In this document: positions 2 through 36,164 of the stretch, in pieces
Layout: each line of letters starts with the position of its first letter
Numbering within the stretch: position 1 is the first letter of the stretch
IMG/VR virus record: IMGVR_UViG_3300025751_000003
Length of the DNA: 64,000 bases
Origin: a virus
Reading direction: 5' to 3' (one strand)
Translations under genes and position numbers: made by a program
The notes under the pieces: generated by a model
What the model saw: only the letters and a program-made list of their open reading frames with translations
Database searches by the model: none
What the model was told of the DNA's origin: nothing

Positions 2-1027
2 AATGTTGGGGTTGGCAGTGGAGTTTCAGCAATTGGAGGAAATTATGGAACTCTTAGCATTCGCGGTAAAACCAACGATTTTGGCGGCGGCATTATTTTT
101 GAATCGCTTGATGGCACTGATCGCACGCTTGCGTACGGTGATGTTGGAGCGTTTCACTTAATCACTCAAGATACTCGCCCCTTAGTTCTTGGGACAAATG
201 CTACCGAAAAACTCCGCATCACATCGGACGGGAAACTAGGTCTGGGGACTAGTAGCCCTACTGTGCCCTTAACAATAGCTTATAGCGGCGCGGAAGCACA
301 GTTACAGATAAACAATTCTGGTAACAACAGGATGGTTTATCTGGGAGCTTACAGTGCAAACGAAGGTATTCTTCGGCTTTTCAATAGCTCGGACGTAGAG
401 ACAGTTCGCATACCCGCTGAAAGCACCGCAGGCGTTCACACATTCTTCAATGCAGGCAACGTAGGGATTGGCACTACGAGTCCTGCCACAGATGTACTTC
501 TGACTGTAGGTGGAAATGACACGAATAGCGGAATAATGCTGGATCGAAGCGCAGGTGACAACTGCGCGATTCACAATGTTGGCGGCACGCTTGTATTCAA
601 GAACGGCAGCAGTTCTACAGTCAGCGGATTAACAGAACGCGCCCGCATTGACAGCTCCGGCAGGTTGTTAGTTGGCACGACTACGAGCACTAACAATCCC
701 CGTCTTGGCGTTGCAGGCAGCACTCACATTGGTGCTGGAGACAATACCGTGTCCTTAGCTGACGGCGCTACAGGCACAGTTATTACTCCTGCTCGTGGCT
801 ATTCTTACATTAACGTCAGTCATGGCAATACTGCTTCAGATGGTTTGCTACTTCTTGTATTTGCTAATACAACAACTCTTACCATTGTCAGTACAGTGCA
901 CAGCAATGCGGGTACTCGCTACAGCGTCTCAGCTTCCGGTAGAGACCTGCAAGTAACCAATGCTCTTGGCATTACGGCCTCGTTCTATGCGTCGTGCTTG
1001 ACGCTTGCTCATGCAAACAATGGTTAG
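2..1027 (+). CDS. tail fibre-like protein, 5' end outside window
   Basis: Frame 2 is open from nt 2. The translation (NVGVGSG..KLGLGTSSPT..NVGIGTTSPA..RIDSSGRLLVGTTTS) shows Gly/Ser/Thr-rich fibre repeats. The track entry 263..1027 is only the part after an internal GTG. Confidence 0.7.
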   Translation, partial: NVGVGSGVSAIGGNYGTLSIRGKTNDFGGGIIFESLDGTDRTLAYGDVGAFHLITQDTRPLVLGTNATEKLRITSDGKLGLGTSSPTVPLTIAYSGAEAQLQINNSGNNRMVYLGAYSANEGILRLFNSSDVETVRIPAESTAGVHTFFNAGNVGIGTTSPATDVLLTVGGNDTNSGIMLDRSAGDNCAIHNVGGTLVFKNGSSSTVSGLTERARIDSSGRLLVGTTTSTNNPRLGVAGSTHIGAGDNTVSLADGATGTVITPARGYSYINVSHGNTASDGLLLLVFANTTTLTIVSTVHSNAGTRYSVSASGRDLQVTNALGITASFYASCLTLAHANNG

Positions 1028-1543: not shown

Positions 1544-2310
1544 CGCTTGTTTGGCGGCCAGGGTTTCAGTTTGATGCTGATGCCTCCACTTACATCGAAG
1601 CGGTGGAGGCTGCTGACACACAGACATTGGAAACTGGTGTCCGCTACGCCATCAATGACTTTGTGATTGGCTGCAAGAATGATGGAATTTGGGATGCGAT
1701 TAAGGCTAGTTGCATTCTTGCGGGTGCTAGGACGCTGAGTGGGGCGTTGGTTCCGTTGGTTGGGACTGCTCCCACGAACTACAACTTTGTATCTGGAGAC
1801 TATAACCGCGAGACTGGACTTGTTGGTGATGGAAGCACGAAGTATTTAGATAGCAACCGAAATAACAATGCTGACCCTCAGAACAGCAAGCACCTGTCGA
1901 TTTACGCTACTGTTGTTTCAAGCATTGGCAATGCGTGTTACATAGGGTTGCCTGCGGCCTCTGGTTCTTCTCATTTAAGTCCCATTGTTGGTAATGTAGG
2001 TTTATTAGGCGGCCGGTTAAATTCAACAGTAGGCGTTCCAACTACTGCGGCCAACGTTGCTGGCCTTCTCGGTTTTAATCGCAGCACTTCAACAAGCTTT
2101 GTTGCAAGAGGAGGGATGACCACAACTGCCGAGATTTTAAACGGCAGTGCAGCTCCAGCAAATGGCAACATTTTGTGTTTTGATGGATTACCAGGAACTA
2201 AAAGTGACGCCCGCCTCGCCTTCTACTCCATAGGCGAATCTCTAGACCTCGCCGCCCTTGACACCCGCGTGTCAGCTTTAATCACCGCTATCGGAGCAGC
2301 TATACCATGA
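1540..2310 (+). CDS. fibre-associated LamG/concanavalin-like protein (putative)
   Basis: The N-terminus (DADASTYIEAVEAADTQTLETGVRYAINDFVIGCKNDGIWDAIKASCILAGARTLSGALVPLVG) resembles conserved phage fibre-accessory proteins. It is translationally coupled to its neighbours. Confidence 0.55.
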   Translation: MTLVWRPGFQFDADASTYIEAVEAADTQTLETGVRYAINDFVIGCKNDGIWDAIKASCILAGARTLSGALVPLVGTAPTNYNFVSGDYNRETGLVGDGSTKYLDSNRNNNADPQNSKHLSIYATVVSSIGNACYIGLPAASGSSHLSPIVGNVGLLGGRLNSTVGVPTTAANVAGLLGFNRSTSTSFVARGGMTTTAEILNGSAAPANGNILCFDGLPGTKSDARLAFYSIGESLDLAALDTRVSALITAIGAAIP

Positions 2311-2930
2311 CCTACATACTGAGTCCTACCGAGCGAGAGTACATTGCCTCGCTTCCGTTTAGGCGAAAGCAAAATGCAAAAGAATGGACGGCCAGTCAAG
2401 CGTTTCCCTGCCCAATGTTGGCACAATGCAGCAAATGCAAAGAGTACATGCCGATTACCAGCTTTTACCCAATCAAAACAAACAAGAGCGGGCGAATTGA
2501 CGTGACTGGCGGACTGCGCATGTATCACTGTGGTACTTGCAGCATGGGCGATTACTTTGCGACCAGCCAAGAAAAGAAGCTTTACTACGCTGCGAAACAA
2601 CGCGCAAAGCTTATTGGCGTTGACTTCAATATCGAGCTTTCAGACATCGTTATTCCCAAATACTGCCCAGTGCTAGGAATCGAGCTGAAGCCAGTAATCG
2701 GCAAAGGTCCGCAAGGTTATACAGCCAAAGGCAATTCACCCACCATTGATCGCTTCGATAACAATCAAGGGTACGTTAAAGGTAACATTGCTATTATTTC
2801 TTACAGGGCTAACGCACTCAAAGGCAACGCCACCTTGGAGGAGATGCAGGCAATCACAAATTACATGGCTAATGGTTGCCCGCCATCGGCGGAAAATTCC
2901 AACACTACTGCTGCTGGGGAGGTGAACTAA
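2307..2930 (+). CDS. HNH-type homing-endonuclease-like protein
   Basis: N-terminal Cys ribbon (CSKCKEY...CGTC) and a C-terminal SPTIDRFDNNQGYVKGNIAIISYRANALKGN motif. It is a paralogue of 28020..28541. Confidence 0.65.
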   Translation: MTYILSPTEREYIASLPFRRKQNAKEWTASQAFPCPMLAQCSKCKEYMPITSFYPIKTNKSGRIDVTGGLRMYHCGTCSMGDYFATSQEKKLYYAAKQRAKLIGVDFNIELSDIVIPKYCPVLGIELKPVIGKGPQGYTAKGNSPTIDRFDNNQGYVKGNIAIISYRANALKGNATLEEMQAITNYMANGCPPSAENSNTTAAGEVN

Positions 2931-7158: not shown

Positions 7159-7665
7159 ATGTTTGTGGCGTATGAGCCCGATGATTACATCACTGGCCTC
7201 ATTGAATTACGTAAGTCGGACGCCACACGACGCTTCAGGAAATCTATCTTCGACGACTACCCGCTTCGCGGCCCGCTAGGGCAGTCCGCGTGCGCTTATT
7301 GCGGGCGATGGAATGAGAAACTAACCATCGACCACATCGTTCCTAAAAGCAAGGGCGGCCCTCACTTCGCACGTTGGAACATGGTGCCCGCCTGCAAACG
7401 GTGCAACTTGGCCAAGACTGATCTGCCAGTGTTTGAGTGGTGGCGGCCCACTGATCAGTGGTCGCGGCAGCGAGAGGAAGTGCTGATGGCTTGGACCTAT
7501 GCCAATAGCTTCATCGATGCCCACACTGACAGTGATGAATATTGGCGCTTCCTGGCTGAGAAGCGGGTGGTGCAGAAGGAAATAATGCGTCGCATAAGAA
7601 AAGGGCCATTTCGTGGCCCTTTTTCTTTAGCCGATTTGGGAGACGTTGGCTGGGCTGTTGCTTAG
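7159..7665 (+). CDS. HNH endonuclease
   Basis: CAYCGRWNEKLTIDHIVPKSKGGPH...NMVPACKRCNLAKTD is a classic HNH motif. Confidence 0.8.
   Translation: MFVAYEPDDYITGLIELRKSDATRRFRKSIFDDYPLRGPLGQSACAYCGRWNEKLTIDHIVPKSKGGPHFARWNMVPACKRCNLAKTDLPVFEWWRPTDQWSRQREEVLMAWTYANSFIDAHTDSDEYWRFLAEKRVVQKEIMRRIRKGPFRGPFSLADLGDVGWAVA
7598..7625. terminator. bidirectional hairpin at a convergence point
   Basis: GAAAAGGGCCA-tttcg-TGGCCCTTTTC, with A-run and T-run flanks, sits inside the 3' end of the HNH ORF. Confidence 0.6.
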
Positions 7666-12484: not shown

Positions 12485-12603
12485 AGACGTGCTATGCGAA
12501 GGATGAGAAGAGCGCTGACAGTTGCTGTACCAGCCAATACAAGAAATAGGCCGAGCGGGTCATGCTGAAAATAAGTAGGAAGGAAGCTCAGTAATGGGAC
12601 CAT
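12469..12603 (-). CDS. possible 44-aa TM peptide
   Basis: Below the track cutoff (MVPLLSFLPTYFQHDPLGLFLVLAGTATVSALLILRIARLWTSK). It overlaps the next start. Confidence 0.3.
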   Translation of the reverse strand: MVPLLSFLPTYFQHDPLGLFLVLAGTATVSALLILRIARLWTSK

Positions 12604-14351: not shown

Positions 14352-16340
14352 ATGGCCTTCAACATCCTTGACCACGAAGCCAAGCTGGAGCCTTCCAAAG
14401 AAGCAGGAAAATATAAGTGTCCGGCCTGCGGCGGCAACAACCTTAGCCTCGACCGGAACAATGGTTCCTATAACTGCTGGAACGATCCATCGCCCAAGCA
14501 CCGCGCTGAAATTCGCAATGTCCTCGCCCCATTGAAGCGTTGGGAAAGGCCGCCCAGGGAAAGCGGCTCCTATCGCTTCCCCTACCAAAGTCGTGATGGC
14601 AACAAGGTTTTGGACGTTGTTCGTCGTGACAACGACGGCAAGAAGCAGATCTTCCAGGAATATCCTGAGGTGAAGCCCGATACACCGCAGCGCCAGAAGG
14701 TCATTGAGAGCCTGCGCTCTCAAGTGCTGCCATACCGCTACAACGAAGCCATTGAAGCTTCCAAGGCTCTCCGCCTGCCCATTTTTGTGGTTGAAGGTGA
14801 GCTTTGTTGTGATGCCGTTTGGCAAATAGGTTTACCGTCCGTCACCTTCTTGGGCGGTAGCAAGCAATACAGGAGCAATGGGGACTATTCATCCCTCTTC
14901 AAGAATGTCCGTCTCGTGTTGTGTCCAGACCGAGATGAGCCAGGCGTGGCTCTCATGCGGGAAGTGGCGGTTGATAACCCTGGCGCTCAGTGGTTGTATG
15001 CAGATCCCGAAAATTTTGAATGGGACTCACTTCCGCAAAATAACGGATATGACATTTCCGATTGGATTGATGAAGGTGCAGACCAAGAACTCATCCTCGC
15101 TTCTGTCGTCTCAAAGGATCGCCATGAAGGCCACGATGGCCTTCCTTCCTATGAAGAGATCATTGGCGCCCTGGAAACCATGGTCGGCCTTTATGGCAAT
15201 GACGCCCGCGTGCTATTTGAAGCACGCCAGTGGATGACAAACCACGGCCTCAAGATGGCCACCACCGAACTTGAAAAGCTTCTGACTGAAGCCAAGACTC
15301 GCGTGGACGGCAAAGAGGAGATCGAGGTGTTGGACGCCAAAGCCATTGCCCTGTCTAATGAAGTGAGGCGCTGGACCATTGCTGGCATCCTTCCCGAAAG
15401 CAGCGTGATGCTCCTAGCCGCTGCTCCAGGCAGCGGCAAATCAACGCTCATTTACAACTGGGCGTTACATGTTGCAACTGGCACGGAATGGAGCGGCCGG
15501 CGCTGTGCTAAGGGCAGGAGCCTCATCATCCAATGCGACGAACCAGTGGTCGATGCAGCGGAAAAGATGCAGGTGATCGGTTACGACCGTGACGATCTCA
15601 ACCCTGAGGACATTGGCTTTATCGAGCGGTGGCGTTTTTCCAATATTGGCTGGCTTGCGGAGCGCATCCGTCGTGATCGCCCGCAATTTGTGGCCATTGA
15701 CAGCCTCACGGCATGCCTAGCCGGCATGGATGTCGACCTCATCAAGAGCGATGCAGGCAATGTCATCTACGAACTGCGAGACATTGCCAACACCTATGGC
15801 TGCAGCATCGTCATCCTTCACCACCTCAATAAAACAGGCGGTGTGCGCGATAGCTCCAGCTTTGAGGCCAACGTCTCTGAAGTGGTGAAGCTTTACCGCC
15901 CCGAAAACAATCCTGGCCCCAGTGAATTCTTGCTGGAATGGACAAAATCACGTAGCGGACTGTCCGGCAAGCACTTCCTGGTTCGCGAGCCCGAAACTTA
16001 TGGCTGGTTCTACAGGGGGCCAGTGGACGGCGACCCAGAAGATCTGATGCGCACTGCCAACATCGTGAACAATCGAGGCATGGAGTGTTTCAGTGCTCAG
16101 CAGATGAGCAACATCCTTTCGCTGTATGACACCGGCAAAGCGAAGCGCACGCTGGAACAGGCACGGCGCCAAGGACTCATCTCTTCATCATGGAGACTCG
16201 GCCCCACTGGTGAGCGGGACCGCATGTATCACTCTTTTGATTATGTGGAAACAGAACTGTCGGACTTTGCGGAGGAGAAACCAACTATTGAGAACGCCCC
16301 TGAGGAAATGCCAGATGTTGATGATGACATTCCGTTCTAA
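14352..16340 (+). CDS. bifunctional primase-helicase (Zn ribbon + TOPRIM + RecA/DnaB-like ATPase)
   Basis: CPACGG zinc motif, TOPRIM-like IFVVEGELCCDAV / LCPDRDEPG, Walker A AAAPGSGKST and Walker B FVAIDSL. The protein ends DVDDDIPF. Confidence 0.85.
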   Translation: MAFNILDHEAKLEPSKEAGKYKCPACGGNNLSLDRNNGSYNCWNDPSPKHRAEIRNVLAPLKRWERPPRESGSYRFPYQSRDGNKVLDVVRRDNDGKKQIFQEYPEVKPDTPQRQKVIESLRSQVLPYRYNEAIEASKALRLPIFVVEGELCCDAVWQIGLPSVTFLGGSKQYRSNGDYSSLFKNVRLVLCPDRDEPGVALMREVAVDNPGAQWLYADPENFEWDSLPQNNGYDISDWIDEGADQELILASVVSKDRHEGHDGLPSYEEIIGALETMVGLYGNDARVLFEARQWMTNHGLKMATTELEKLLTEAKTRVDGKEEIEVLDAKAIALSNEVRRWTIAGILPESSVMLLAAAPGSGKSTLIYNWALHVATGTEWSGRRCAKGRSLIIQCDEPVVDAAEKMQVIGYDRDDLNPEDIGFIERWRFSNIGWLAERIRRDRPQFVAIDSLTACLAGMDVDLIKSDAGNVIYELRDIANTYGCSIVILHHLNKTGGVRDSSSFEANVSEVVKLYRPENNPGPSEFLLEWTKSRSGLSGKHFLVREPETYGWFYRGPVDGDPEDLMRTANIVNNRGMECFSAQQMSNILSLYDTGKAKRTLEQARRQGLISSSWRLGPTGERDRMYHSFDYVETELSDFAEEKPTIENAPEEMPDVDDDIPF

Positions 16341-24293: not shown

Positions 24294-24479
24294 ATGCAAG
24301 ACGCCATCGCCGTTATTGCCATTTCTAAAAAGGGCAAATCCCGCATCGGCACTAAGCTCACCACTGCCATTGTCGAACAGAATCACCACGATAAAATCTT
24401 CGTTGTGTTTCCTGAGCTAAATCAATGCAGGTGGATTCGCAAAGACAACGATCCTGACTTTTCCATTGTTGATTCCTGA
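24294..24479 (+). CDS. hypothetical protein
   Basis: 61-aa ORF with a GAGAACCATG context. Confidence 0.5.
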   Translation: MQDAIAVIAISKKGKSRIGTKLTTAIVEQNHHDKIFVVFPELNQCRWIRKDNDPDFSIVDS

Positions 24480-24483
24480 AACC

Positions 24484-24789
24484 ATGCGTTACGTCTGTAA
24501 TTACAACGACAACGGTCCCTATTTCAGTGCTACGCAAGGGCAATATCAAGCAGCTCGCCTCAAAGAGCTGCTGATGCACGTGCGCGTGTGCATGGAAGAC
24601 GCAGATCAGGCCATTGGCGTGTTCAATGGTGACTCAGAGTGCATTGGTATGTGGCTTGATGAAGCAGAGCCCGTAGATGACGGGGAAGGTGGCATGGTGT
24701 TGGGCAAACCGTGCTACACGCTGTATCGCCCAGGCGACATGAGCGCCGGATTGTGGAACATGCACCTTCGCCATTTCAACAGGCCATGA
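24484..24789 (+). CDS. hypothetical protein
   Basis: Met at 24484 (GAAACCATG) within track ORF 24466..24789. Confidence 0.5.
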   Translation: MRYVCNYNDNGPYFSATQGQYQAARLKELLMHVRVCMEDADQAIGVFNGDSECIGMWLDEAEPVDDGEGGMVLGKPCYTLYRPGDMSAGLWNMHLRHFNRP

Positions 24790-24944
24790 TTCTCATTGAT
24801 TTCTTCTCTGAAGACGCCTGTAAGGGCACTGAGCTGATTGAAGGGTGGTATTTCTACGCTGATGACGATGATTCTGTCATTGGCGGGCCTTTCCCCAATG
24901 AGGAAGCCGCCCTCAAGGCGGCTTTCGATGGACATTCTTGGTGA
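24786..24944 (+). CDS. hypothetical acidic protein
   Basis: ATGA overlap (MILIDFFSEDACKGTELIEGWYFYADDDD...). Confidence 0.45.
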   Translation: MILIDFFSEDACKGTELIEGWYFYADDDDSVIGGPFPNEEAALKAAFDGHSW

Positions 24945-25048
24945 GACCCGGCTAGAGGTGTATTGGACCCGGCTAGGAATGTATCTATGGAAAAATTTTG
25001 GACCCGGCTAGGGTCGTATCTAGGGTCCGGCTAGGGTCGTATCTAGGG
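24945..25048 (+). repeat. four tandem iteron-like direct repeats
   Basis: GACCCGGCTAGAGGTGTATTG / GACCCGGCTAGGAATGTATCTATGG / GACCCGGCTAGGGTCGTATCTAGGG / TCCGGCTAGGGTCGTATCTAGGG. Confidence 0.8.
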
Positions 25049-25081
25049 AGGTCCATGCGGCTATGCGCCTCCCCGCATAGT

Positions 25082-25520
25082 AGTACAAATGTACTAGCCG
25101 ATTGTCACTGATAAGCAAAACTTATCATTCAGGCCCGAACGATAAGCTGGGCTTATCATATAAGCCAGGCCTATGGGAGGCCGCCCCATCCACAAGCTGG
25201 GCTTATCAGTGGCCCACCAGTACGTTTGCACTTGTGCCAATCCGGCACTGTCACACGATGCCGGTACGGATCGTGATGGCCTGCCCTGCCGATACGGATC
25301 GTGATCACACTGGCCCCTGCAGTGCGGATCGTGACGGGCAGCGCTGCTGATCAGCACCGTTAGCTTGTGCCAATCCGGCCTGCTGTCACAGCGGCCCCTT
25401 TGTCTGTATCCGTTGCTACATTCTGGCCCTTTGTAAGGTTTCGCAATATTTGCGCCGCTTGCACCTGGCCGTGCTAACGGCCCCGACCCTTTGCCCCCGC
25501 TTGTGCCAATCGACGGCCTG
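25082..25520. repeat. non-coding zone with several interleaved repeat families and palindromes
   Basis: AGTACAaaTGTACT; TGATAAGcaaaaCTTATCA; GATAAGCtggGCTTATC; CTTGTGCCAATC(CGGC) x3; (TA/TG)CGGATCGTGA x3; TGCTGATCAGCA. Confidence 0.75.
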
Positions 25521-25751
25521 GCCTGCCCCAGGGTTGACGTGGGGGCCTGCCATGCTGTACGCGCGGGCGCGATCGTTTGTCTTTTGCTTTGCACGGCCCA
25601 GCAGTCAGCGGCCCCTACCATTGCTGACCGCCAAAAGCCCCTAGCTAGTGGGCCACCTCTGGCACTGGCCTAGTTGCCCTGGGCTTTGGCCCTTGTGCTT
25701 GGCAATATTTGAGGGCGCCAGCGATGGTGCAGCCCTCTCCTCTTCAATCCG

Positions 25752-25916
25752 ATGCAAGCCCTCTCCATCACTGCCAAGCTGGCCGTTGTTTTTGGCGGTT
25801 CTCTCCTGGCCCTTTTCACGGCCTCACTGGCCGTAGAGGATCAGCGGCACTTCATCGCATGCCGCGCCACGGGCGCCAGCGCTGACGCTTGCCTGCTGCA
25901 GATCGCAGGCCGCTGA
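25752..25916 (+). CDS. possible 54-aa TM protein
   Basis: Below the track cutoff (MQALSITAKLAVVFGGSLLALFTASLAVEDQRHFIACRATGASADACLLQIAGR). Confidence 0.3.
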   Translation: MQALSITAKLAVVFGGSLLALFTASLAVEDQRHFIACRATGASADACLLQIAGR

Positions 25917-25955
25917 TTCCCTACCCCCCCCGTCAACCACAACCACACCAAAGCC

Positions 25956-27473
25956 ATGCCCACCACCACCACCACCCCCGCCGGCCCCATCGCCTATCTG
26001 CAGGCCGTAGCCTCTGGCACCACCAAAGCCCAGGGCCTGAAGCGCCCGACCGTTGCAGCCCTGCAGCAGGCAGCCAAAGCCCTGGGCCTGCCCGACCGCA
26101 TCGACCACGCCCCCAGCGGCGGCTACCACGTCGGCACTGGCTGGAATATTGGCCCCTGTAGCAACCTGAAAGACGTGGCCGCGGCCCTACTGCGCAGTCA
26201 CGAGAACGCCTGGGCCGTTAAGCCTGCAGCCCAGGCCCTGCCCCCGAGCCATGCCGAGCGCGTGGCCGATGACATTCTGGCCGCTTTGGATGAGCTAAGC
26301 GCCCGATGGGAGGCCCAACCACAGCAGCAACCACAGCAGGCCCCCGCTGCCATCGTGCCCGCTGGCCCTACTGCCCGCAAGACGGCCCCCGCCGCTGTGC
26401 CCGATGACGTGAAGGCGCACCTAGCCCGCTTTGGCCTGGCCGTTGATGGCCTGCTGACAGTAGGGGCCTCAAACGCCAAGCTTGCAAAGGGCAAAGCCCT
26501 GGCCTGGCCCGTCATCCTGCACCACTTGCCCGCCAAAGCCCTGGCCCAGGCCGTGGCCGGCCCCAAAGCCGGCCCCACGGCCCCACGCTCCCGGATCGAC
26601 GGCCTGCAGGCCCTGGCCGAACGTGAGAACGTCCTAAGCCTGGCCTTGGCCCATAATGGCTGCCCCTGGGCCTCTGCTGGCTGTGCTGCTGGCTGCCTGG
26701 CCTGGGCTGGTCATGGCGGAATGTCCACCACTGTGGCCGCTGCCCGTGCCCGCCGCACCCTTGCCATGCTGGCCGATGGCCGTATATATGCCAGGGCCGT
26801 GCTTTGGGCCATCGCCCGAGCCTATCGGCAGGCCCAGACCAAAGGGCTGCCCCTGGCCGTCAGACTGCGCGGCACCGATGACAGCCCGGTTCACCTTTGG
26901 CGCTTTGACGTGACAGCAGCAGAGGCACAAAGCCTGGCCCGCCGTTACGGCCTGCCCGTGGCTCCTGGCCAGGGCCTCACCCTGCCAGAGGCCCTGGCCC
27001 TGGCCCCTGCCGGTGCTGTGCATCTCTACGAATATTCCAAAGCCCCCATCACTGGCCCCCACGGCCTGCAGGCCCAGGCCAGCGCTGGCTTTGACGTGAC
27101 AGCCTCGCTGGCAGCAGACCGGCCCCGTGGCATCGATCAAGCCCTGGCCGCTGTGGCCGCTGGGTTCCGCGTGGCCGTGCCCGCTGGCTTTGCAAAGGGC
27201 CAGCCCCTGCCAGAGGCCCTGATTCTGCGCAACGATGACGGCGGGGTGCGCCTGCTGTGCATCGACGGCGACACCACCGACCACCGATGGGCCGACCCTG
27301 CAGGGCCTCAGCCTGGGGGCTTTGACGGCGTGGCCGTCATCCTGCGCACAAAGCGCAGCAGGGGCAAAGGGCCAGAGGCTGACGCGTTCAGCCTCACCCC
27401 CCTGGTGGGAGCATGGCAGCCCCTGGCCGGTGGTGGCCAGGCAGCGTTCACCACCGTGAAATGGGAGGCCTGA
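25956..27473 (+). CDS. GC-rich 505-aa protein, C-terminal two-thirds GP88-like (function unknown)
   Basis: SNAKLAKGK..., CPWASAGCAAGCLAWAGHGG..AARARR, RLRGTDDSP, HLYEYSK and IDGDTTDHRWADP..VILRTKRSRGKG resemble the GP88 family as I recall it. The N-terminus is low complexity. Confidence 0.55.
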   Translation: MPTTTTTPAGPIAYLQAVASGTTKAQGLKRPTVAALQQAAKALGLPDRIDHAPSGGYHVGTGWNIGPCSNLKDVAAALLRSHENAWAVKPAAQALPPSHAERVADDILAALDELSARWEAQPQQQPQQAPAAIVPAGPTARKTAPAAVPDDVKAHLARFGLAVDGLLTVGASNAKLAKGKALAWPVILHHLPAKALAQAVAGPKAGPTAPRSRIDGLQALAERENVLSLALAHNGCPWASAGCAAGCLAWAGHGGMSTTVAAARARRTLAMLADGRIYARAVLWAIARAYRQAQTKGLPLAVRLRGTDDSPVHLWRFDVTAAEAQSLARRYGLPVAPGQGLTLPEALALAPAGAVHLYEYSKAPITGPHGLQAQASAGFDVTASLAADRPRGIDQALAAVAAGFRVAVPAGFAKGQPLPEALILRNDDGGVRLLCIDGDTTDHRWADPAGPQPGGFDGVAVILRTKRSRGKGPEADAFSLTPLVGAWQPLAGGGQAAFTTVKWEA

Positions 27474-27476
27474 CCA

Positions 27477-27608
27477 ATGCTGCCCCTACAGCCCCCGGCA
27501 TGGATGGAGAGGGAAGAGGCCCGAGCCGAATGGTTGGAAGCCCAGGGCCTGCCAGAGGATTGGCAGCCCGACCCAGAGGATCTAGAGCGATGGTGGGAGA
27601 TCGAATAG
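27477..27608 (+). CDS. possible 43-aa acidic peptide
   Basis: MLPLQPPAWMEREEARAEWLEAQGLPEDWQPDPEDLERWWEIE, starting 4 nt after the upstream stop. Confidence 0.3.
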   Translation: MLPLQPPAWMEREEARAEWLEAQGLPEDWQPDPEDLERWWEIE

Positions 27609-27644
27609 CAGCCCCTACCATGCCGGTCCCCATCCCGTCAACTC

Positions 27645-27677
27645 AGCCCCCAGGCAGCCCCTGGGGGCTTTGCTTTG
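27645..27677 (+). terminator. rho-independent terminator closing the GC-rich module
   Basis: AGCCCCCAGG-cagcc-CCTGGGGGCT followed by TTGCTTTG. Confidence 0.65.
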
Positions 27678-27817
27678 CCTGCTGGCCCCTGCCATGCCTG
27701 GCCCCCGCTTTGGCCCTGCTACGGGCCCACAGGCTGCCCGCTGACGCTGCCCCCGCTTTGCCTGCTGCTGCCTGAGCTTTGCTGGGCTGAGGGTATCACC
27801 CATCACTGGAACGGGGT

Positions 27818-27839
27818 TTTTCCACAGGTCTGTGGAAAA
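27818..27839. promoter_or_regulatory. inverted pair of DnaA-box-like 9-mers
   Basis: TTTTCCACAG-GT-CTGTGGAAAA is a perfect 22-bp palindrome containing TTTTCCACA on both strands. Confidence 0.6.
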
Positions 27840-28019
27840 CTCTTCACTGTAACGCTTTGTTTCAACGCTTGACGCACCGGCCGGTGCCATGCAAGAATAG
27901 CGAAGCAATGGTTGACATAGCGCGGTAACGTGGGGGTTTTGTGCCAAGCTTGTCGGGCTACCCCAAAACAAAGTGCCGCAATTTTTGATCAACTATTTTC
28001 CTTTATGCATACGCGCATA

Positions 28020-28541
28020 TCACAACTGAGAGCAGACTAGGTTCATTTTTGCTTTTGCAAGTGCGAGGCCAAGTTCGATTAGTTCTGTTTCGTTTGCGTC
28101 ATTTTTCAAGCAATTTGCTTTCCAAGAAATAATCCAAACATTGTCTTTTGTGTATCCTCTTGAGCTATCAATACGATCTAGCGATGGAGCGCAGGGATGA
28201 GCGTTACCTTGTTCTCCTGCTCCATAGTTAGTTTTCCAGCGAAAAGGAGCCCCGGTAATAGGACAATTATCGGTTACGAGGGAATATAGGAATTTGGAAT
28301 CAAGGTCAAATTCCCAGCCTTTAGTTTTTGCTCTATGTTTAGCCGCTGAGAGCATTTTTGCGATTCTTGATGCCACGGGATTTGCATTGCGAGCAAATGC
28401 CCGCGCGTTGTAGTTTCTGTTGTAACTGCTTTCACATGCTTTACATGCGGATCTGCGACCATCTTTAGCTCTGCTTCGACGAGTAAATAGTGAGAGCGGC
28501 TTTACGCGACCACATTTAGAGCAGGCCTTTGTTCCTTCCAT
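28020..28541 (-). CDS. HNH-type homing-endonuclease-like protein
   Basis: CSKCGRVKPLSLF..CKACE ribbon and APSLDRIDSSRGYTKDNVWIISWKANCLKND. It is a paralogue of 2307..2930. The start is taken at MEGTKAC, whereas the track extends to 28712. Confidence 0.6.
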   Translation of the reverse strand: MEGTKACSKCGRVKPLSLFTRRSRAKDGRRSACKACESSYNRNYNARAFARNANPVASRIAKMLSAAKHRAKTKGWEFDLDSKFLYSLVTDNCPITGAPFRWKTNYGAGEQGNAHPCAPSLDRIDSSRGYTKDNVWIISWKANCLKNDANETELIELGLALAKAKMNLVCSQL

Positions 28542-28699
28542 GGAAGGCAAATTAACTGGGCAAAGCATAGCCATGGCTCGTGAAAACGTAGTCTTGCTAT
28601 GGCGAACCAAGGCCCCAAAGGCCGCAGGTGAGCCATATGGCGAAGCTCCGTTCAGAACATTCACCAGACATTCCATTCCATTGTTATTTCCAGAACAAA

Positions 28700-28726
28700 G
28701 GGCGGTCCTCAAAGACCGCCCTTTTT
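28700..28726. terminator. hairpin terminator
   Basis: GGGCGGTC-ctcaaa-GACCGCCC followed by TTTTT. Confidence 0.55.
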
Positions 28727-29215
28727 AGTGCGAAGACCATTGTTTGCGTGTGTTTTTGCGTCACCCGCGCAGTTGCACGCATTTTCCCCTTGCATTCACC
28801 AGGCGTCCTGGAGCGACGCCGCTTTGAGGCGGCGTCTCAGGGCTGGAAGGACATTTGCCAGTCCTAGAAGGCTTGCGAGGGGCTTGGCGTCGAGAGCTTT
28901 GGGCTCTTCTGGAGCGCTCAGTGGCCGCTTTGGGGCGGCCCCTCGCTTAGTGCTGGATGCGATGGTCAGGCGTCGCTTCGTCGGCGAACCGTATCCTGAA
29001 CAGCAGTTGCACAATGCTTAGCATAACGTGAGCTGTGACCTAATTTTGGTATAGCGCTGATACCAAACAGGGCTTTTGATGCCATTTCTCATGAAAATCT
29101 TCAGCTTTTCTCCATTGTTTATGCTGAGATGCTGAAATAATCGTGAAAAGTGACAAGAAACACATGCCCTTCCATTGTTCTCTCTTTAGCGTGAAGAAAT
29201 ATCGCAGAGATCACC

Positions 29216-29404: not shown

Positions 29405-29455
29405 CGAAAGATTTGATTAAGGAGCCAGCAGACGTAGCTAAGCTGGTTCCGTTCA

Positions 29456-29485
29456 AGAGCCGCCTTTGAGGGCGGCTCTTTCGTC
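29456..29485 (+). terminator. hairpin terminator/attenuator ahead of the RNR gene
   Basis: AAGAGCCGCC-tttgag-GGCGGCTCTT followed by TCGTCTC. Confidence 0.5.
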
Positions 29486-33304: not shown

Positions 33305-33389
33305 GGTGGTTCCCGATGATGCTGTCCCCGTTCCGTGACAGCGAGTCATGCGCCCCGTCGCCGGGGTGAACGTACTTTTAGTTTATCAA

Positions 33390-33460
33390 GCCCCTGGCAG
33401 GAATTGAACCCGCGGCTAATGCTTTACAAAAGCATTGCTCTACCACTGAGCTACAAGGGC
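33390..33460 (-). tRNA. tRNA-Thr (anticodon UGU), no encoded CCA
   Basis: The reverse complement GCCCTTG TA GCTC AGTGGTA GAGC A ATGCT TTTGTAA AGCAT TAGCC GCGGG TTCAATT CCTGC CAGGGGC folds as a full cloverleaf with a 7-bp acceptor stem. Confidence 0.85.
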
Positions 33461-34314: not shown

Positions 34315-35679
34315 TCAAATGAATCCGTCTAGCCAATTAGCCTCGTCGTCTTGATTTGCGGCGTGAATTGCTGCGGCCAATGCAAATGCATGGTCGTCAA
34401 TGCCAGTTTGCTTGCCACCAGTTACCGTCCATTGTCCGCCTGCTCTATACACCACAGTTAGACCTTTGATTTCACTAATTGCCTTTTCATGGTTGTAAAT
34501 GTTCACCTGTCCAGCATTAAATAATTCCCGCATCTTTGAGAATGCTTTTACTTTGGAATTGATGGTCCAAGTGAGTTCTTCAATGGGAAAATCACCAGTG
34601 AGGGCCTGGATTGTGCCTGCGCTGTTGTATTGGTCCATGACGATCTTGTCAAACAAATAGAGCTTGTGCTGTTCCCTTATCCAGTCTTCCACTGCATTGA
34701 TATTTACTTCCTTCCTTCCATTAATTTCAAAGTCGGCAACAAACGTGTGGAACTTGTCAACAACTAGAGTGCCATTATTGAAATGAACAATACAGGCGGT
34801 GTAGTTATCTCGACCAAGGCCGCCGCGAGCAGGGTCAAGCGCTAGTACATATGTTCCCATAAAGGCCTCTTCAGGAGGCAATGCCTTGCGTTTGTCGTCA
34901 ATGCAGGCCTCTACTACATCAGGAGAGATGAGAGCAGAGAGATTGGCAGAGAACTGCGCCCCATATTCCACATTGAACTTATCTGGGTCACGCTGGCGCT
35001 CCAGCTCCAGGAATTCACGAGAGATGGTGGGATTCATCTCCCATGTTGGGAGGTTTACAGCTTGCAAATGGGAAAACCGCCCTGAGGCGGCTTCCTTGAA
35101 ATGTTGATAGAAGAGGCCGTCTGTGAGCCAAGGCGAAGAGAGTTCAAGGATTTTGCCTTCCCGGCCAAACTGTGCCACTGCAGGAGAAAGCGCTTGATAG
35201 ATGCCGTTGGCGCCAGAGTTGGCATCGCCGTCTACTGCGAAGGCAAGCTCGTCAAACACACAAGCGCAACATGCAAGACCACGAGCAGCCCTACCGGAGG
35301 TGGGAATAGCTTTGAACACGCAACCATTGCTCATCTCAAGCTGATCTGCCGTTTCGCGCTGGATTTCTTGGGCGAACGGGCTATCGAGGATGAGCTGGCG
35401 GATGTTATTGAGGGCAATGCGGCTCTGATCTTGACTGTTGGCCACTGTCAAGACGTACCACTTCTCCCCTTTCCGTACCTTGCTTTTGTATTTCTCTTCC
35501 AGTACAAAACAGATGTAGACGCAGGCAACGGCAGCCATAAGCGTTTTACCACTACGGCGACCGAGAGCCCAAGTTGCCTGTGAATAGCCGCCAGTGAAGA
35601 AGCTGTCAAGAATTTCAGCTTGCTTCGGATAGAGTTCAAGCTTTAGGGCGTGCTTGGCAAAGTCTGAGCAGCTAAGCAT
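34315..35679 (-). CDS. terL: terminase large subunit
   Basis: Walker A ALGRRSGKTLMAA, the FDELAF Walker B region and a C-terminal RNaseH-like nuclease region (LALDPARG..DNYTACIV...DDHAFALA). Confidence 0.9.
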   Translation of the reverse strand: MLSCSDFAKHALKLELYPKQAEILDSFFTGGYSQATWALGRRSGKTLMAAVACVYICFVLEEKYKSKVRKGEKWYVLTVANSQDQSRIALNNIRQLILDSPFAQEIQRETADQLEMSNGCVFKAIPTSGRAARGLACCACVFDELAFAVDGDANSGANGIYQALSPAVAQFGREGKILELSSPWLTDGLFYQHFKEAASGRFSHLQAVNLPTWEMNPTISREFLELERQRDPDKFNVEYGAQFSANLSALISPDVVEACIDDKRKALPPEEAFMGTYVLALDPARGGLGRDNYTACIVHFNNGTLVVDKFHTFVADFEINGRKEVNINAVEDWIREQHKLYLFDKIVMDQYNSAGTIQALTGDFPIEELTWTINSKVKAFSKMRELFNAGQVNIYNHEKAISEIKGLTVVYRAGGQWTVTGGKQTGIDDHAFALAAAIHAANQDDEANWLDGFI

Positions 35680-36164
35680 GCTTTTAGTTCCTCAATCGGG
35701 CGAAGATTCTCTTTAGGAACGAAATAAGAGACGCGCCCTGGTACGTGACTCTTTTTCCACTTGTCCTGCATTGCATCGTAGGCCTTGATCCACCCGTGGA
35801 TGCGTATCTCCCGATGTTCGATGGTGACCAATACCAGGGTCTTAGAGGAGGTTTCGTCGAGCATGCACGCCAGATCATAGTAATGTCGTGCTCGTGTTTT
35901 TACATCGATGTCCGGGGGTAAATCATAACTTCCGCGTCGGGCTTCACTCTCCTTAAACACTTCATCTTTAAGGCCAAGATATGAAGCAACGGCCATCTCA
36001 CCACCGGCCCCAAGGATGTGAACACGGAGGGCATCTTGCCCGTGAGTGGGGCCTCGATCACGGCCAATTTTGCCCTGAATCATGTTGACGCTCTGCCGAC
36101 GCTCACCTTCTGCAATGGCGAGCGCCTTCTCGGAGTGTGACAGCTCCCACGTTATGTAGCCCAT
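35643..36164 (-). CDS. putative PD-(D/E)XK-like nuclease upstream of terL
   Basis: GAGGEMAVASYLG ... YDLPPDIDVKT fits an E...D..(D/E)xK arrangement. It overlaps terL by 37 nt. Confidence 0.4.
   Translation of the reverse strand: MGYITWELSHSEKALAIAEGERRQSVNMIQGKIGRDRGPTHGQDALRVHILGAGGEMAVASYLGLKDEVFKESEARRGSYDLPPDIDVKTRARHYYDLACMLDETSSKTLVLVTIEHREIRIHGWIKAYDAMQDKWKKSHVPGRVSYFVPKENLRPIEELKACLAAQTLPSTP

What the first reader, a model, noticed from the sequence alone, without database searches (positions are those of the whole stretch)
25082..25750. About 0.7 kb without credible ORFs, packed with at least five interleaved repeat/palindrome families
Seen: AGTACA-aa-TGTACT (25082..25095). TGATAAG-caaaa-CTTATCA (25109..25127). 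GATAAGC-tgg-GCTTATC (25141..25157), with a degenerate second copy at 25192..25208. CTTGTGCCAATC(CGGC) three times (25231, 25364, 25500), the first two followed within a few nt by TGTCACA. (TA/TG)CGGATCGTGA three times with a period of about 28-30 bp (25265, 25293, 25323). A perfect 12-bp palindrome TGCTGATCAGCA (25345..25356). The only long ORF here, 25094..25621 on the minus strand, is Arg/Gly/Pro-rich junk. Such a density of distinct short repeats is not explained by promoters alone. It looks like a multi-protein assembly site such as an ori, a packaging site or a recombination site.
Basis: seen in the sequence. Interest (0 to 1): 0.65.

Follow-up and report, generated by a model that had tools for sequence, protein, structure and literature searches.

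The report
Phage control region with host-regulator sites
This 0.7-kb gene-free stretch of a marine Synechococcus phage is most likely a control region that carries binding sites for the host's stress and nutrient regulators in front of an early phage operon, not a proven replication or packaging site.

Summary
Every motif sits at the stated coordinates. Direct repeats far exceed dinucleotide shuffles (0/1000); inverted repeats do so only marginally. No frame is conserved.

The window is a relative of Synechococcus siphophage S-CBS4. The stretch lies between a conserved 52-aa gene and a GP88-family gene (PF17338), and about 20 diverged relatives keep this arrangement.

Three parts stand out:
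- **LexA box:** AGTACAAATGTACT (25082) matches the cyanobacterial consensus exactly and is the only exact match in 64 kb.
- **NtcA box:** TGTATCCGTTGCTACA (25405) lies inside a 325-bp non-coding core that is better conserved than the flanking genes.
- **Lineage-specific repeats:** relatives carry different arrays in the same gap, including 1-5 LexA boxes, six NtcA boxes at a 40-bp period, 20-27 Pho boxes at an 11-bp period, and Zur-like boxes. All are nearly absent from the flanks.

Best reading (about 0.5): a transcriptional control hub ahead of the orf54-GP88 operon that reads host SOS and nutrient state. The binders of the window's own repeats (CTTGTGCCAATC, CGGATCGTGA, GATAAG palindromes) are unknown.

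An origin (about 0.17) or a packaging/terminal role (about 0.1) is not excluded. The defining features I could test were unmet or inconclusive for both. GP88 has an unknown fold and no similarity to replication initiators. No binding or transcription was tested.

The parts
24689..29189 (.). 4.5-kb segment that holds the whole locus and is missing from the S-CBS4 GenBank record. GC is 0.61-0.69 between 25 and 28 kb, against about 0.52 elsewhere.
   Evidence: BLAST of the window against the S-CBS4 record: the record end maps to 24688 and the record start to 29190. Composition.
24786..24944 (+). orf52, a small acidic protein gene that marks the left edge of the gap in all relatives.
   Evidence: tblastn at 59-100% identity in about 35 loci, always upstream of the gap.
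24945..25050 (+). Four GACCCGGCTAG(G)-type direct repeats (spacing 21, 35, 23) directly after the orf52 stop. The binder is unknown.
   Evidence: The same module (2-4 copies at a 21-23-bp period) is found in most relatives.
25082..25095 (.). Exact cyanobacterial LexA box, AGTACAAATGTACT.
   Evidence: Only exact match to AGTACWNWTGTACT in 64 kb; 0 expected in 100 shuffles. Consensus from PMC3091678. 13 of 20 lineages have 1-5 boxes in the gap and 0-1 outside it.
25109..25127 (.). Palindrome TGATAAG-N5-CTTATCA. It lies in the lowest-GC part of the region, and its binder is unknown.
   Evidence: GATAAGC sites recur in L009, L025 and L029.
25141..25208 (.). Two copies of GATAAGC-TGG-GCTTATC (25141-25157, and a degenerate copy at 25192-25208), 50 bp apart.
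   Evidence: family D7, 85% identity.
25219..25232 (.). Second, weaker LexA-type box AGTACGTTTGCACT (2 mismatches).
   Evidence: The identical 14-mer is present in the gaps of L025 and L041.
25231..25511 (+). Three CTTGTGCCAATC sites (25231, 25364, 25500). The third lies in the conserved core. The first is a partial duplicate of the core unit CTTGTGCCAATC...CGTGnnGGCCTGCCnTGC.
   Evidence: The 25500 copy is conserved in L013, L015, L016/18 and L019, and with one mismatch in L035.
25265..25356 (+). Three CGGATCGTGA repeats (25267, 25295, 25325), a GATC cluster (5 sites) and the palindrome TGCTGATCAGCA (25345-25356).
   Evidence: L013 has four copies. TGATCA-containing repeats recur in L024, L030 and L035.
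25376..25700 (+). Conserved non-coding core (87-94% nucleotide identity to L013, L015, L018 and L019). No coding signal and no RNA covariation.
25405..25420 (.). NtcA-type box TGTATCCGTTGCTACA (TGTA-N8-TACA). It overlaps an extended -10-like TGCTACATT at 25414-25422.
   Evidence: Invariant in five lineages. L031 carries six such boxes at a 40-bp period.
25609..25690 (+). Block shared by even the most distant lineages: CCCCTACCAT, then AGCCCCTAGCTAGTGGGCCACC-N-TGGCCTAGTTGCC. In relatives without orf54 it sits about 75 to 110 nt upstream of the first in-frame GP88 ATG, and in one group it is followed by TTGACC-N18-TTTAAT.
25752..25916 (+). orf54, a small hydrophobic protein gene inserted between the control region and GP88 in this lineage only.
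   Evidence: 85-100% identity in L013-L015 and L019; absent elsewhere.
25956..27473 (+). GP88-family gene (505 aa). It has a variable N-terminal domain, a Pro/Gln-rich linker and a conserved C-terminal domain with a Cys cluster. Function unknown.
   Evidence: Pfam PF17338 and phrog_1617. Model pLDDT 85.7. No PDB fold match. Only GP88-type matches among viral models.

Best explanation
The stretch is the upstream control region of a phage operon (orf54, GP88, orf43). Its order, left to right, is:
1. A conserved set of 21-23-bp-period repeats just after orf52.
2. A variable zone of operator-type sites.
3. A conserved 325-bp core that holds the promoter region.

In this phage the variable zone holds one exact and one weak host LexA operator, GATAAG palindromes, and CGGATCGTGA and CTTGTGCCAATC repeats. 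The core holds an NtcA-type site that overlaps an extended -10-like element.

Proposed mechanism: host regulators that report DNA damage (LexA) and nitrogen status (NtcA) bind here, together with unidentified factors for the remaining repeats, and set how strongly the GP88 operon is transcribed. In relatives, regulators for phosphate (PhoB/SphR) and zinc or iron (Zur/Fur family) would do the same. Lineages have swapped, duplicated and expanded these site modules.

Shown here: the motifs, their statistical excess, their confinement to this gap, their recurrence across lineages, and the non-coding nature of the core.

Inferred only: that the proteins bind, where transcription starts, and what the regulatory outcome is.
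For: - **LexA:** exact consensus at 25082, unique in 64 kb, 0 expected. Consensus AGTACWNWTGTACT and marine Synechococcus recA/lexA boxes such as CGTACGTTTGTACT are listed in PMC3091678. LexA-type boxes occur in the equivalent gap of 13 of 20 lineages, up to 5 copies in L039, with 0-1 outside.
- **NtcA:** TGTA-N8-TACA at 25405 is invariant inside the core. Six copies at exactly 40 bp in L031 keep the arms while part of the spacer varies. Density is 0.51/kb in gaps against 0.02/kb outside.
- **PhoB:** L040 and L043 carry 20 and 27 CTTAACCT boxes, all on the + strand, at an 11-bp period in groups of 3-4. This equals the cyanobacterial Pho-box consensus and its 8+3 spacing (PMC1906773).
- **Zur type:** sites within 1-3 mismatches of NTNANAATGATNATCATTNTNAN (PMC9337993) occur in 12 of 20 gaps, 0.64/kb against 0.008/kb outside.
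- **Layout:** the block shared by all lineages lies directly upstream of GP88 and, in one group, of a TTGACC-N18-TTTAAT promoter-like element.
- **Core:** it is non-coding and shows no RNA covariation, as expected of protein-binding DNA.
- **Parallel in a cultured phage:** in the cluster-A mycobacteriophage Bumblebee11, the GP88 homologue (gene 84) lies 287 bp inside a 1.2-kb gene-free genome end that carries 4-5 copies of a TGCGATGTCAAG-type repeat. GP88 homologues also sit within about 1 kb of the record start in pelagiphages and a T7-like roseophage.
- **Precedent:** host NtcA and PhoB sites are already documented in cyanomyophages (PMC3037559, PMC10976474).
Against: - No binding or transcription data exist.
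- Promoter predictions in this GC-rich DNA are weak. The consensus scan found nothing convincing in 25051-25750.
- Downstream of the NtcA box the candidate -10 elements sit at 14 nt (TAAGGT) or 24 nt (CAATAT). I recall about 22 nt as the usual spacing.
- The LexA box does not clearly overlap a -35 or -10 element.
- The window's own three main repeat families match no regulator I could name.
- Arrays of 6 to 27 sites are far more than a promoter normally needs, so plain promoter control may not be the whole story.
- One of the papers warns that bioinformatic Pho-box calls in phages are unreliable.
- The cumulative GC skew reaches its minimum at about 28 kb, which would also fit an origin nearby.
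Confidence: 0.5

Rival explanations
1. Origin of phage DNA replication. The short direct repeats would be iterons for a phage initiator (for example the primase-helicase at 14352-16340, or GP88), the GATC cluster and host-factor sites would modulate firing, and transcription from the core would activate it.
For: - Dense lineage-specific direct repeats at a fixed genomic position.
- The densest GATC cluster in the window.
- The cumulative GC skew has its minimum at 27-28 kb. The skew of + strand genes changes from about -0.02 (14-25 kb) to about +0.10 (29-33 kb).
- The phage encodes a primase-helicase.
- From memory: the P1 origin combines iterons with GATC repeats and DnaA boxes, and the P4 origin consists of short octamer repeats bound by its primase-helicase.
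Against: - No DnaA box within one mismatch in 25051-25750; the only one in 24900-25960 is at 24986.
- No strongly AT-rich stretch. The minimum is 0.35-0.40 GC over 40-60 bp, at the LexA box.
- The repeats are 10-12 bp at 28-30 or 133-136 bp spacing, not the roughly 20-bp phased iterons I recall as typical.
- GP88 shows no sequence or fold similarity to any initiator, and nothing related was found in 72,556 plasmids.
- Arrays do not track the GP88 N-terminal domain type. L024 and L030 share a repeat family but have different domains.
- Several arrays in relatives are recognisable transcription-factor sites.
- The skew dip is partly produced by the C-rich coding strand of the GC-rich GP88 gene.
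Confidence: 0.17
2. Terminal or packaging function. A physical genome end lies at about 24688/24689, and the repeats are terminase-recognition sites or an end-proximal element. Possibly 24689-29189 is a long direct terminal repeat that the S-CBS4 assembly dropped.
For: - The S-CBS4 record ends at window 24688, in the middle of the homologue of the 107-aa ORF (residue 74 of 107), and restarts at 29190.
- Two metagenome contigs start at 24689 and 24691.
- GP88 homologues are end-proximal in several cultured phage records.
- TGATCA-type repeats recur here and in relatives. From memory, the P1 pac site is built of TGATCA/G hexamers.
Against: - TerS and TerL lie at 34.3-36.2 kb, about 9 kb away.
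- Many long contigs read straight through 24688.
- One contig start (24691) overlaps another contig end (24813) from the same sample by exactly 123 nt. That looks like an assembly-graph branch rather than a DNA end.
- Contigs break at many other points in this segment: 24813, 24944, inside the GP88 linker, and about 27035-27660.
- The nearest repeats are about 260 bp from the putative end.
- No read-level data are available.
Confidence: 0.1
3. A non-coding RNA gene or a long structured leader. The conserved 325-bp core would be transcribed, and its conservation would reflect RNA structure.
For: - The core is more conserved than the neighbouring genes.
- If transcription starts near 25430-25460, a leader of about 300 nt would precede orf54.
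- An imperfect hairpin at 25634-25687 is present in all lineages.
Against: - No Rfam hit in 20-30 kb at E<=1, apart from an unrelated sub-threshold match at 29408.
- Folding energy is no better than shuffles on either strand (z = -0.03 and -0.66).
- RNAalifold gives a positive (penalising) covariation term, with 1 compensatory pair of 97 and many broken pairs.
Confidence: 0.06
4. A phage attachment or other site-specific recombination site, or a mobile cassette boundary.
For: - The segment 24689-29189 behaves as a present/absent unit relative to the S-CBS4 record.
- An HNH endonuclease gene lies inside it at 28020-28712.
- 12-nt inverted copies of GTGGCCCAC/GTGGGCCAC flank the variable zone at 25209 and 25645.
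Against: - No integrase or recombinase was identified among the window ORFs I scanned or in the parts of the S-CBS4 annotation I read. A published note lists only a tRNA as an integration-type feature of S-CBS4.
- No repeats longer than 8 bp are shared by the two segment borders.
- No junction lacking the island was found in IMG/VR; the single pattern hit was unrelated.
- This GP88 subfamily occurs in only 2 MAG contigs among 185,579 species genomes, so there is no sign of prophages.
Confidence: 0.04

Closest known systems
Right-end early control region of cluster-A mycobacteriophages (L5/Bxb1 type: early promoter P_left plus repeated repressor operators, upstream of the genes that gave the GP88 family its name)
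   Same: In Bumblebee11 a GP88-family gene (gene 84) lies just inside a gene-free stretch of 1,220 bp that carries 4-5 copies of one short repeat (TGCGATGTCAAG type). The window has the same layout: repeats, then small ORFs, then GP88.
   Different: From memory, the mycobacteriophage repeats bind the phage's own repressor and the region abuts a cos end. Here the recognisable sites are for host regulators, no phage repressor is known, and the position of the genome end is unproven.
LexA-controlled phage promoters (from memory: coliphage 186 tum, CTXphi PrstA, Bacillus phage GIL01)
   Same: A host SOS-repressor operator inside a phage regulatory region. The box at 25082 is an exact cyanobacterial consensus.
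   Different: Those phages are temperate or carrier-state phages with a defined switch. Here up to five boxes occur in tandem in relatives, the box is not shown to overlap a promoter, and lysogeny is not known for S-CBS4-type phages.
Host NtcA- and PhoB-driven promoters of T4-like cyanomyophages (PMC3037559; PMC10976474)
   Same: Cyanophages use the host's nitrogen and phosphate regulators. The same consensus motifs (GTA-N8-TAC and PyTTAAPyPy(T/A)) appear here.
   Different: In myophages the sites are single and scattered in front of many genes. Here they are concentrated in one hypervariable gap of a siphophage and amplified to 6 (NtcA) or 20-27 (Pho) tandem copies in some lineages.
Iteron-type origins (from memory: lambda ori, P1 oriR, P4 ori/crr)
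   Same: Clusters of short direct repeats, a GATC cluster, and a location next to a skew minimum.
   Different: There is no DnaA box, no unwinding element and no adjacent initiator. Repeat size and spacing are atypical.
Repeat- and palindrome-rich non-coding region in the terminal repeat of phage T5 (injection stop signal; from memory)
   Same: A gene-free stretch packed with direct and inverted repeats near early genes, possibly within a terminal repeat.
   Different: The terminal-repeat status here is only a hypothesis drawn from record and contig ends. No sequence or gene similarity to T5 was seen.

Membership tests
Cyanobacterial LexA operator | 14-bp palindrome matching AGTACWNWTGTACT / RGTACNNNDGTWCB | tested here: met
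   25082-25095 is an exact match, unique in 64 kb, with 0 expected in shuffles. Consensus from PMC3091678.
Cyanobacterial LexA operator | Conservation of the site at the same locus in related genomes | tested here: met
   13 of 20 lineages have 1-5 boxes in the gap and 0-1 in several kb of flanks.
Cyanobacterial LexA operator | Overlap with or close proximity to promoter elements | tested here: inconclusive
   By eye, only a weak TTGTCA-N15-TATCAT lies 7 nt downstream of the box. The consensus scans found nothing better.
Cyanobacterial LexA operator | Binding by LexA and derepression on DNA damage | not testable with these tools
   Needs EMSA or DAP-seq, and infection experiments.
NtcA-dependent promoter | GTA-N8-TAC (extended TGTA-N8-TACA) site | tested here: met
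   TGTATCCGTTGCTACA at 25405-25420. The window holds 3 such sites against 0.25 expected. The site is invariant in 5 lineages.
NtcA-dependent promoter | -10 box TAN3T about 22 nt downstream of the site (spacing from memory) | tested here: inconclusive
   Read from the sequence: TAAGGT lies 14 nt and CAATAT 24 nt downstream. An extended -10-like TGCTACATT overlaps the site itself.
Iteron-type replication origin | Three or more iterons of about 17-22 bp in helical phase (from memory) | tested here: not met
   Repeats are 10-12 bp at 28/30 bp and 133/136 bp spacing.
Iteron-type replication origin | AT-rich DNA-unwinding element | tested here: not met
   Lowest GC is 0.35 (40 bp) and 0.38-0.40 (60 bp), at the LexA box. 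That is only the bottom 3-6% of windows.
Iteron-type replication origin | DnaA boxes | tested here: not met
   None within 1 mismatch of TTWTCCACA in 25051-25750. One lies at 24986.
Iteron-type replication origin | Adjacent gene for a cognate initiator | tested here: not met
   GP88 has no PDB sequence hit, no fold hit (best E 0.3) and no plasmid homologue.
Iteron-type replication origin | Strand-composition switch at the site | tested here: inconclusive
   The cumulative GC skew minimum is at 27-28 kb, but it is confounded by the GC-rich, C-rich GP88 gene.
pac/cos packaging site | Located in or next to the small-terminase gene (from memory) | tested here: not met
   The terminase genes lie at 34315-36164 on the minus strand.
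pac/cos packaging site | Coincidence with mapped genome termini | tested here: inconclusive
   The S-CBS4 record end and two contig starts fall at 24688-24691. A 123-nt contig overlap points to a graph branch instead. No reads are available.
Structured non-coding RNA | Match to a known family, or covariation supporting a fold | tested here: not met
   No Rfam match. Fold z-scores are -0.03 and -0.66. The covariation term is positive, with 1 compensatory pair of 97.
Phage early control region upstream of a GP88-family gene (cluster-A mycobacteriophage type) | GP88-family gene downstream of a gene-free stretch of about 1 kb or more that holds repeated operator-type sites | tested here: met
   Window: 24945-25751, then GP88. 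Bumblebee11: 1,220 bp with 4-5 repeats.
Phage early control region upstream of a GP88-family gene (cluster-A mycobacteriophage type) | Operators bound by a phage-encoded repressor, and position at a physical genome end | not tested
   No repressor was identified, and the genome ends of this phage are unknown.

The most novel reading that the evidence does not exclude
The gap is a fast-evolving "sensor or decoy" module. Lineages load it with tandem arrays of sites for different host global regulators: LexA up to 5, NtcA 6, Pho boxes 20-27, and Zur-type boxes. As the phage DNA multiplies, these arrays would either titrate those regulators away from the host regulons, or make an early developmental decision (go ahead, or stall as in pseudolysogeny) depend steeply on the host's DNA-damage, nitrogen, phosphate or metal status. 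The unassigned repeats in this window would then be sites for further host regulators whose motifs are not yet known.
Probability: 0.2. Interest if true: 0.8.

Novelty: new variant of a known kind. Interest (0 to 1): 0.6.

Why it matters
Nutrient limitation and DNA damage strongly change the outcome of cyanophage infection in the sea. How siphophages read host state is largely unknown. The only documented route is single NtcA or PhoB sites in front of scattered cyanomyophage genes.

Here one fixed, gene-free position in a widespread group of Synechococcus siphophages collects sites for four host global regulators, and different lineages amplify different ones. If the sites are functional, this gives a compact and testable handle on how these phages couple their programme to host physiology. 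It would also be a natural example of regulatory modules being swapped between phages.

The work also flags three further points:
- The reference S-CBS4 genome record probably lacks this 4.5-kb segment.
- The GP88 family, which is common near the record ends of several phages sampled here and has no known function or fold, sits directly under this control.
- The unassigned repeats are candidate motifs for regulators not yet described.

Tried and rejected
- **Coding:** the 175-aa minus-strand ORF and the short plus-strand ORFs were tested. They have no Pfam, PHROG or NCBIfam hits, show frameshifts in relatives and lack codon periodicity. Rejected.
- **Upstream ORF coupled to GP88:** some relatives have a TAATG overlap that suggested this. 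The frame is closed by a TAG 13 codons upstream (read by hand from the sequences). Rejected.
- **Structured RNA:** rejected.
- **GP88 as initiator:** I tried Pfam, NCBIfam, PDB by sequence and by profile, an AlphaFold model with Foldseek against PDB and viral models, and plasmid searches. None gave a link to replication. The weak PDB hits are TIM-barrel-like enzymes at E>=0.3.
- **Co-variation of arrays with the GP88 N-terminal domain:** not found.
- **Other motifs in the window region:** Pho boxes, CRP sites, RpaB HLR1 sites and Zur boxes are all absent.
- **Invertible segment or mobile cassette with flanking repeats:** nothing longer than 8 bp is shared by the two borders.
- **Junction lacking the island in IMG/VR:** one chance hit only.
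- **Wasted scan:** one IMG/VR scan used a pattern with a wrong spacer length.
- **Literature:** no paper mentions PF17338 or the GP88 family. The S-CBS4 genome paper is not in the library.
- **Similarity searches:** no similar DNA in cultured phages beyond S-CBS4 itself, and none in plasmids.
Full report
**What the window is.**
The window is about 90% identical in DNA to Synechococcus siphophage S-CBS4, NC_016766. Its layout, left to right:
- tail genes, then an endolysin gene;
- nucleotide-metabolism genes;
- a Sak-like annealing protein gene;
- a primase-helicase gene (14352-16340);
- a run of small + strand ORFs up to 24944;
- the stretch in question;
- a GP88-family gene (25956-27473);
- an HNH endonuclease gene on the minus strand (28020-28712);
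- ribonucleotide reductase genes;
- a tRNA-Thr gene;
- terminase genes on the minus strand (34.3-36.2 kb);
- the portal, head and tail genes.

The S-CBS4 record ends at window position 24688 and restarts at 29190. The whole segment 24689-29189 is therefore absent from that record. GC is 0.61-0.69 between 25 and 28 kb, against about 0.52 elsewhere.

**Checking the observation.**
CTTGTGCCAATC and CGGATCGTGA each occur three times here and nowhere else in 64 kb.
- Direct repeats are far in excess of 1000 dinucleotide-preserving shuffles: 26 repeated 10-mers against 0.54, with 0/1000 shuffles reaching it.
- Inverted repeats are only marginally enriched (38/1000 and 60/1000).
- A lone 12-bp palindrome is not unusual (253/1000).
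- The stretch has the densest GATC cluster in the window.
- The repeat zone actually begins at 24945, with four GACCCGGCTAG-type repeats just after the stop of a 52-aa ORF.

**Is it coding or an RNA?**
The 175-aa minus-strand ORF and the short plus-strand ORFs have no family hits. I aligned the stretch with four relatives that are 87-94% identical (L013, L015, L018, L019).
- Left part, 25051-25375: variable.
- Right part, 25376-25700: a very well conserved core.
- In the core, substitutions fall 24/25/20 over the three phases (p=0.74).
- Amino-acid identity is lower than nucleotide identity in all six frames.
- Every frame has stops, and there is a 1-nt indel.

So the core is non-coding. The RNA tests were also negative:
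- Rfam gives nothing here.
- Folding energies equal those of shuffles.
- RNAalifold finds 1 compensatory pair of 97, with a penalising covariation term.

The conservation is therefore best read as protein-binding DNA.

**Comparative anatomy.**
The GP88 protein has hundreds of metagenomic relatives, many on contigs of about 52 to 81 kb. I fetched loci for about 20 distinct lineages. In all of them the order is orf52, then a gap of 420-1940 bp, then GP88. Each gap is built the same way.
1. Two to four GACCCGGCT-type repeats at a 21-23-bp period follow directly after orf52.
2. A lineage-specific zone of short repeats and palindromes comes next. Examples: AATAAAGAATT at 34 bp in L015, ACCGTAGAATATACTC at 25 bp in L027, CATATGCCGGTAGC at 16 bp in L030.
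3. A block shared by even the most distant lineages closes the gap: CCCCTACCAT, then AGCCCCTAGCTAGTGGGCCACC...TGGCC.... In lineages without orf54 it lies about 75 to 110 nt upstream of the first in-frame GP88 ATG. In one group it is followed by TTGACC-N18-TTTAAT, a good sigma-70-type promoter match that sits just before the probable true start codon.

In the window's lineage the small hydrophobic orf54 has been inserted between this block and GP88.

**What the sites are.**
Several modules match published consensus sites of cyanobacterial global regulators.
- **LexA.** AGTACAAATGTACT at 25082 equals AGTACWNWTGTACT (PMC3091678). It is the only exact match in the window, with none expected. A weaker box, AGTACGTTTGCACT, at 25219 recurs as the identical 14-mer in L025 and L041. 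Thirteen of 20 lineages have 1-5 such boxes in the gap and almost none in the flanks. L039 has five in a row.
- **NtcA.** TGTATCCGTTGCTACA at 25405 (TGTA-N8-TACA) is invariant in the core. L031 has six such boxes at exactly 40 bp, with conserved arms and partly variable spacers.
- **PhoB/SphR.** L040 and L043 have 20 and 27 CTTAACCT boxes, all on the + strand, at an 11-bp period in groups of three or four. That is the cyanobacterial Pho-box consensus and spacing (PMC1906773).
- **Zur/Fur family.** Sites within 1-3 mismatches of the cyanobacterial Zur-box consensus (PMC9337993) occur in 12 of 20 gaps, at 0.64/kb against 0.008/kb outside. The window itself has none.

The window also lacks Pho, CRP and HLR1 sites. 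Its remaining families match nothing I could name: the GATAAG palindromes, CGGATCGTGA, CTTGTGCCAATC and TGCTGATCAGCA. The first CTTGTGCCAATC unit (25231-25289) looks like a partial duplicate of the core unit at 25500-25555. This suggests that a core site was multiplied upstream.

**The neighbouring gene.**
GP88 (PF17338, phrog_1617) has three parts:
- a variable N-terminal domain, with at least five unrelated types across lineages and none in some;
- a Pro/Gln-rich linker;
- a conserved C-terminal domain of about 370 aa, with a Cys-x6-Cys-x3-Cys cluster.

A confident model (pLDDT 85.7) has no significant PDB match (best E 0.3). Among viral models it matches only GP88 or "Gp37/Gp68-like" proteins. 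Profile searches of PDB sequences find nothing.

Nothing links GP88 to replication initiation, and no homologue was found on plasmids. The repeat arrays do not follow the N-terminal domain type.

In cultured phages, distant GP88 homologues sit close to record ends or in early regions:
- about 0.8 kb from the left end in pelagiphages;
- at positions 261-932 in a T7-like roseophage;
- as gene 84 of the cluster-A mycobacteriophage Bumblebee11. There it lies 287 bp inside a gene-free right end of 1,220 bp that holds 4-5 copies of a TGCGATGTCAAG-type repeat.

From memory, that region in L5-type phages holds the early promoter and repressor operators. It is the closest known parallel to the layout seen here.

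**Interpretation.**
I think the stretch is most likely (about 0.5) the control region of the orf54-GP88 operon. It would read host state through LexA and NtcA in this phage, and through PhoB and Zur-type regulators in relatives, together with unknown factors for the other repeats. Use of host NtcA and PhoB by cyanomyophages is documented (PMC3037559, PMC10976474). What is new is the concentration of sites in one hypervariable gap, the tandem amplification, and the LexA and Zur-type sites.

The weak points are:
- promoter predictions are poor;
- the spacing downstream of the NtcA box is not canonical;
- the LexA box does not clearly overlap a promoter;
- nothing has been tested experimentally.

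**Rivals.**
- **Origin (about 0.17).** It would explain the direct repeats, the GATC cluster and the skew minimum at about 28 kb. It lacks DnaA boxes, an unwinding element, typical iterons and an initiator.
- **Terminal or packaging role (about 0.1).** It rests on the coincidence of the S-CBS4 record end and two contig starts at 24688-24691. A dropped 4.5-kb terminal repeat would explain the S-CBS4 record neatly. Against it: long contigs read through the point, one contig pair overlaps by exactly 123 nt as at an assembly-graph branch, contigs break at many places in this segment, and the terminase genes are 9 kb away.
- **Structured RNA (about 0.06)** and **recombination site (about 0.04).** Neither has positive support.

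These readings are not all mutually exclusive.

**Most novel reading not excluded (about 0.2).**
Arrays of 6-27 sites are more than a promoter needs. They could act as decoys that titrate host regulators as the phage DNA multiplies. Alternatively they could act as a steep switch that ties an early decision to host nutrient or damage status.

**Verdict.**
The feature is a new variant of a known kind: phage regulatory DNA that uses host transcription factors. Interest 0.6.

Noticed in passing
window 24689-29189 (borders 24688/24689 and 29189/29190): The S-CBS4 GenBank record lacks exactly this 4.5-kb segment. Its last base cuts the homologue of the 107-aa ORF (24466-24789) at residue 74 of 107. 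Two metagenome contigs start at 24689 and 24691. The reference genome may be incomplete, for instance through a dropped terminal repeat or an unassembled variable segment.
   Followed up: partly
window 25956-27473 and GP88 genes in L009-L045: The GP88 gene has 0.60-0.71 GC (0.65 or more in 14 of the 15 lineages checked), while the DNA on either side is mostly about 0.45-0.59 GC. A strongly and stably GC-rich gene inside a mid-GC phage is unexplained.
   Followed up: partly
window 25956-27473; proteins P0001-P0240: GP88 proteins carry at least five unrelated N-terminal domain types, or none. These are joined to the conserved catalytic-looking domain by a Pro/Gln-rich linker (QQQQQPQQ). The C-terminal domain has a Cys-x6-Cys-x3-Cys cluster and a fold with no PDB match.
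   Followed up: partly
window 27609-28019: A second gene-free stretch lies downstream of GP88. It contains another CCCCTACCAT motif (27612), a piece conserved in relatives (27645-27757) and a TTGACA at 27912. Its function is unknown.
   Followed up: no
window 856-871 and 12526-12541: Two more TGTA-N8-TACA (NtcA-type) sites. The window total is 3 against 0.25 expected. The one at 12526 lies in an intergenic gap next to the recombination genes.
   Followed up: no
window 2307-2930 (+), 7159-7665 (+), 28020-28712 (-); L043 261-959: The window has three HNH/endonuclease VII-type genes. Relative L043 has an extra HNH gene inserted between orf52 and the repeat arrays. This may be linked to the mosaic nature of the segment.
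   Followed up: no
L013, L019, L022, L024, L035, L041 gaps; window 25061-25081: A 10-bp palindrome TATGCGCATA, or a longer ATGCGCATATGCGCAT, recurs in several relatives' gaps, up to three times in L041. The window has a split version, CTATGCG-N7-CGCATAG, just left of the LexA box. The binder is unknown.
   Followed up: no
loci L026, L032, L033, L034, L081, L082, L084, L088, L089: Metagenome contigs break unusually often inside this segment: in the GP88 linker, at 24813, at 24944 and at about 27035-27660. This fits high micro-diversity or repeats, and it means public assemblies of these phages are often cut here.
   Followed up: partly
window 29408-29484: A sub-threshold Rfam match to RNAI (27.2 bits against a gathering score of 47; E=0.1), just upstream of the ribonucleotide reductase gene. 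Probably chance.
   Followed up: no
window 33389-33460 (-): A tRNA-Thr(UGU) gene lies between the nucleotide-metabolism genes and the terminase genes. S-CBS4 is also reported to carry a tRNA.
   Followed up: no
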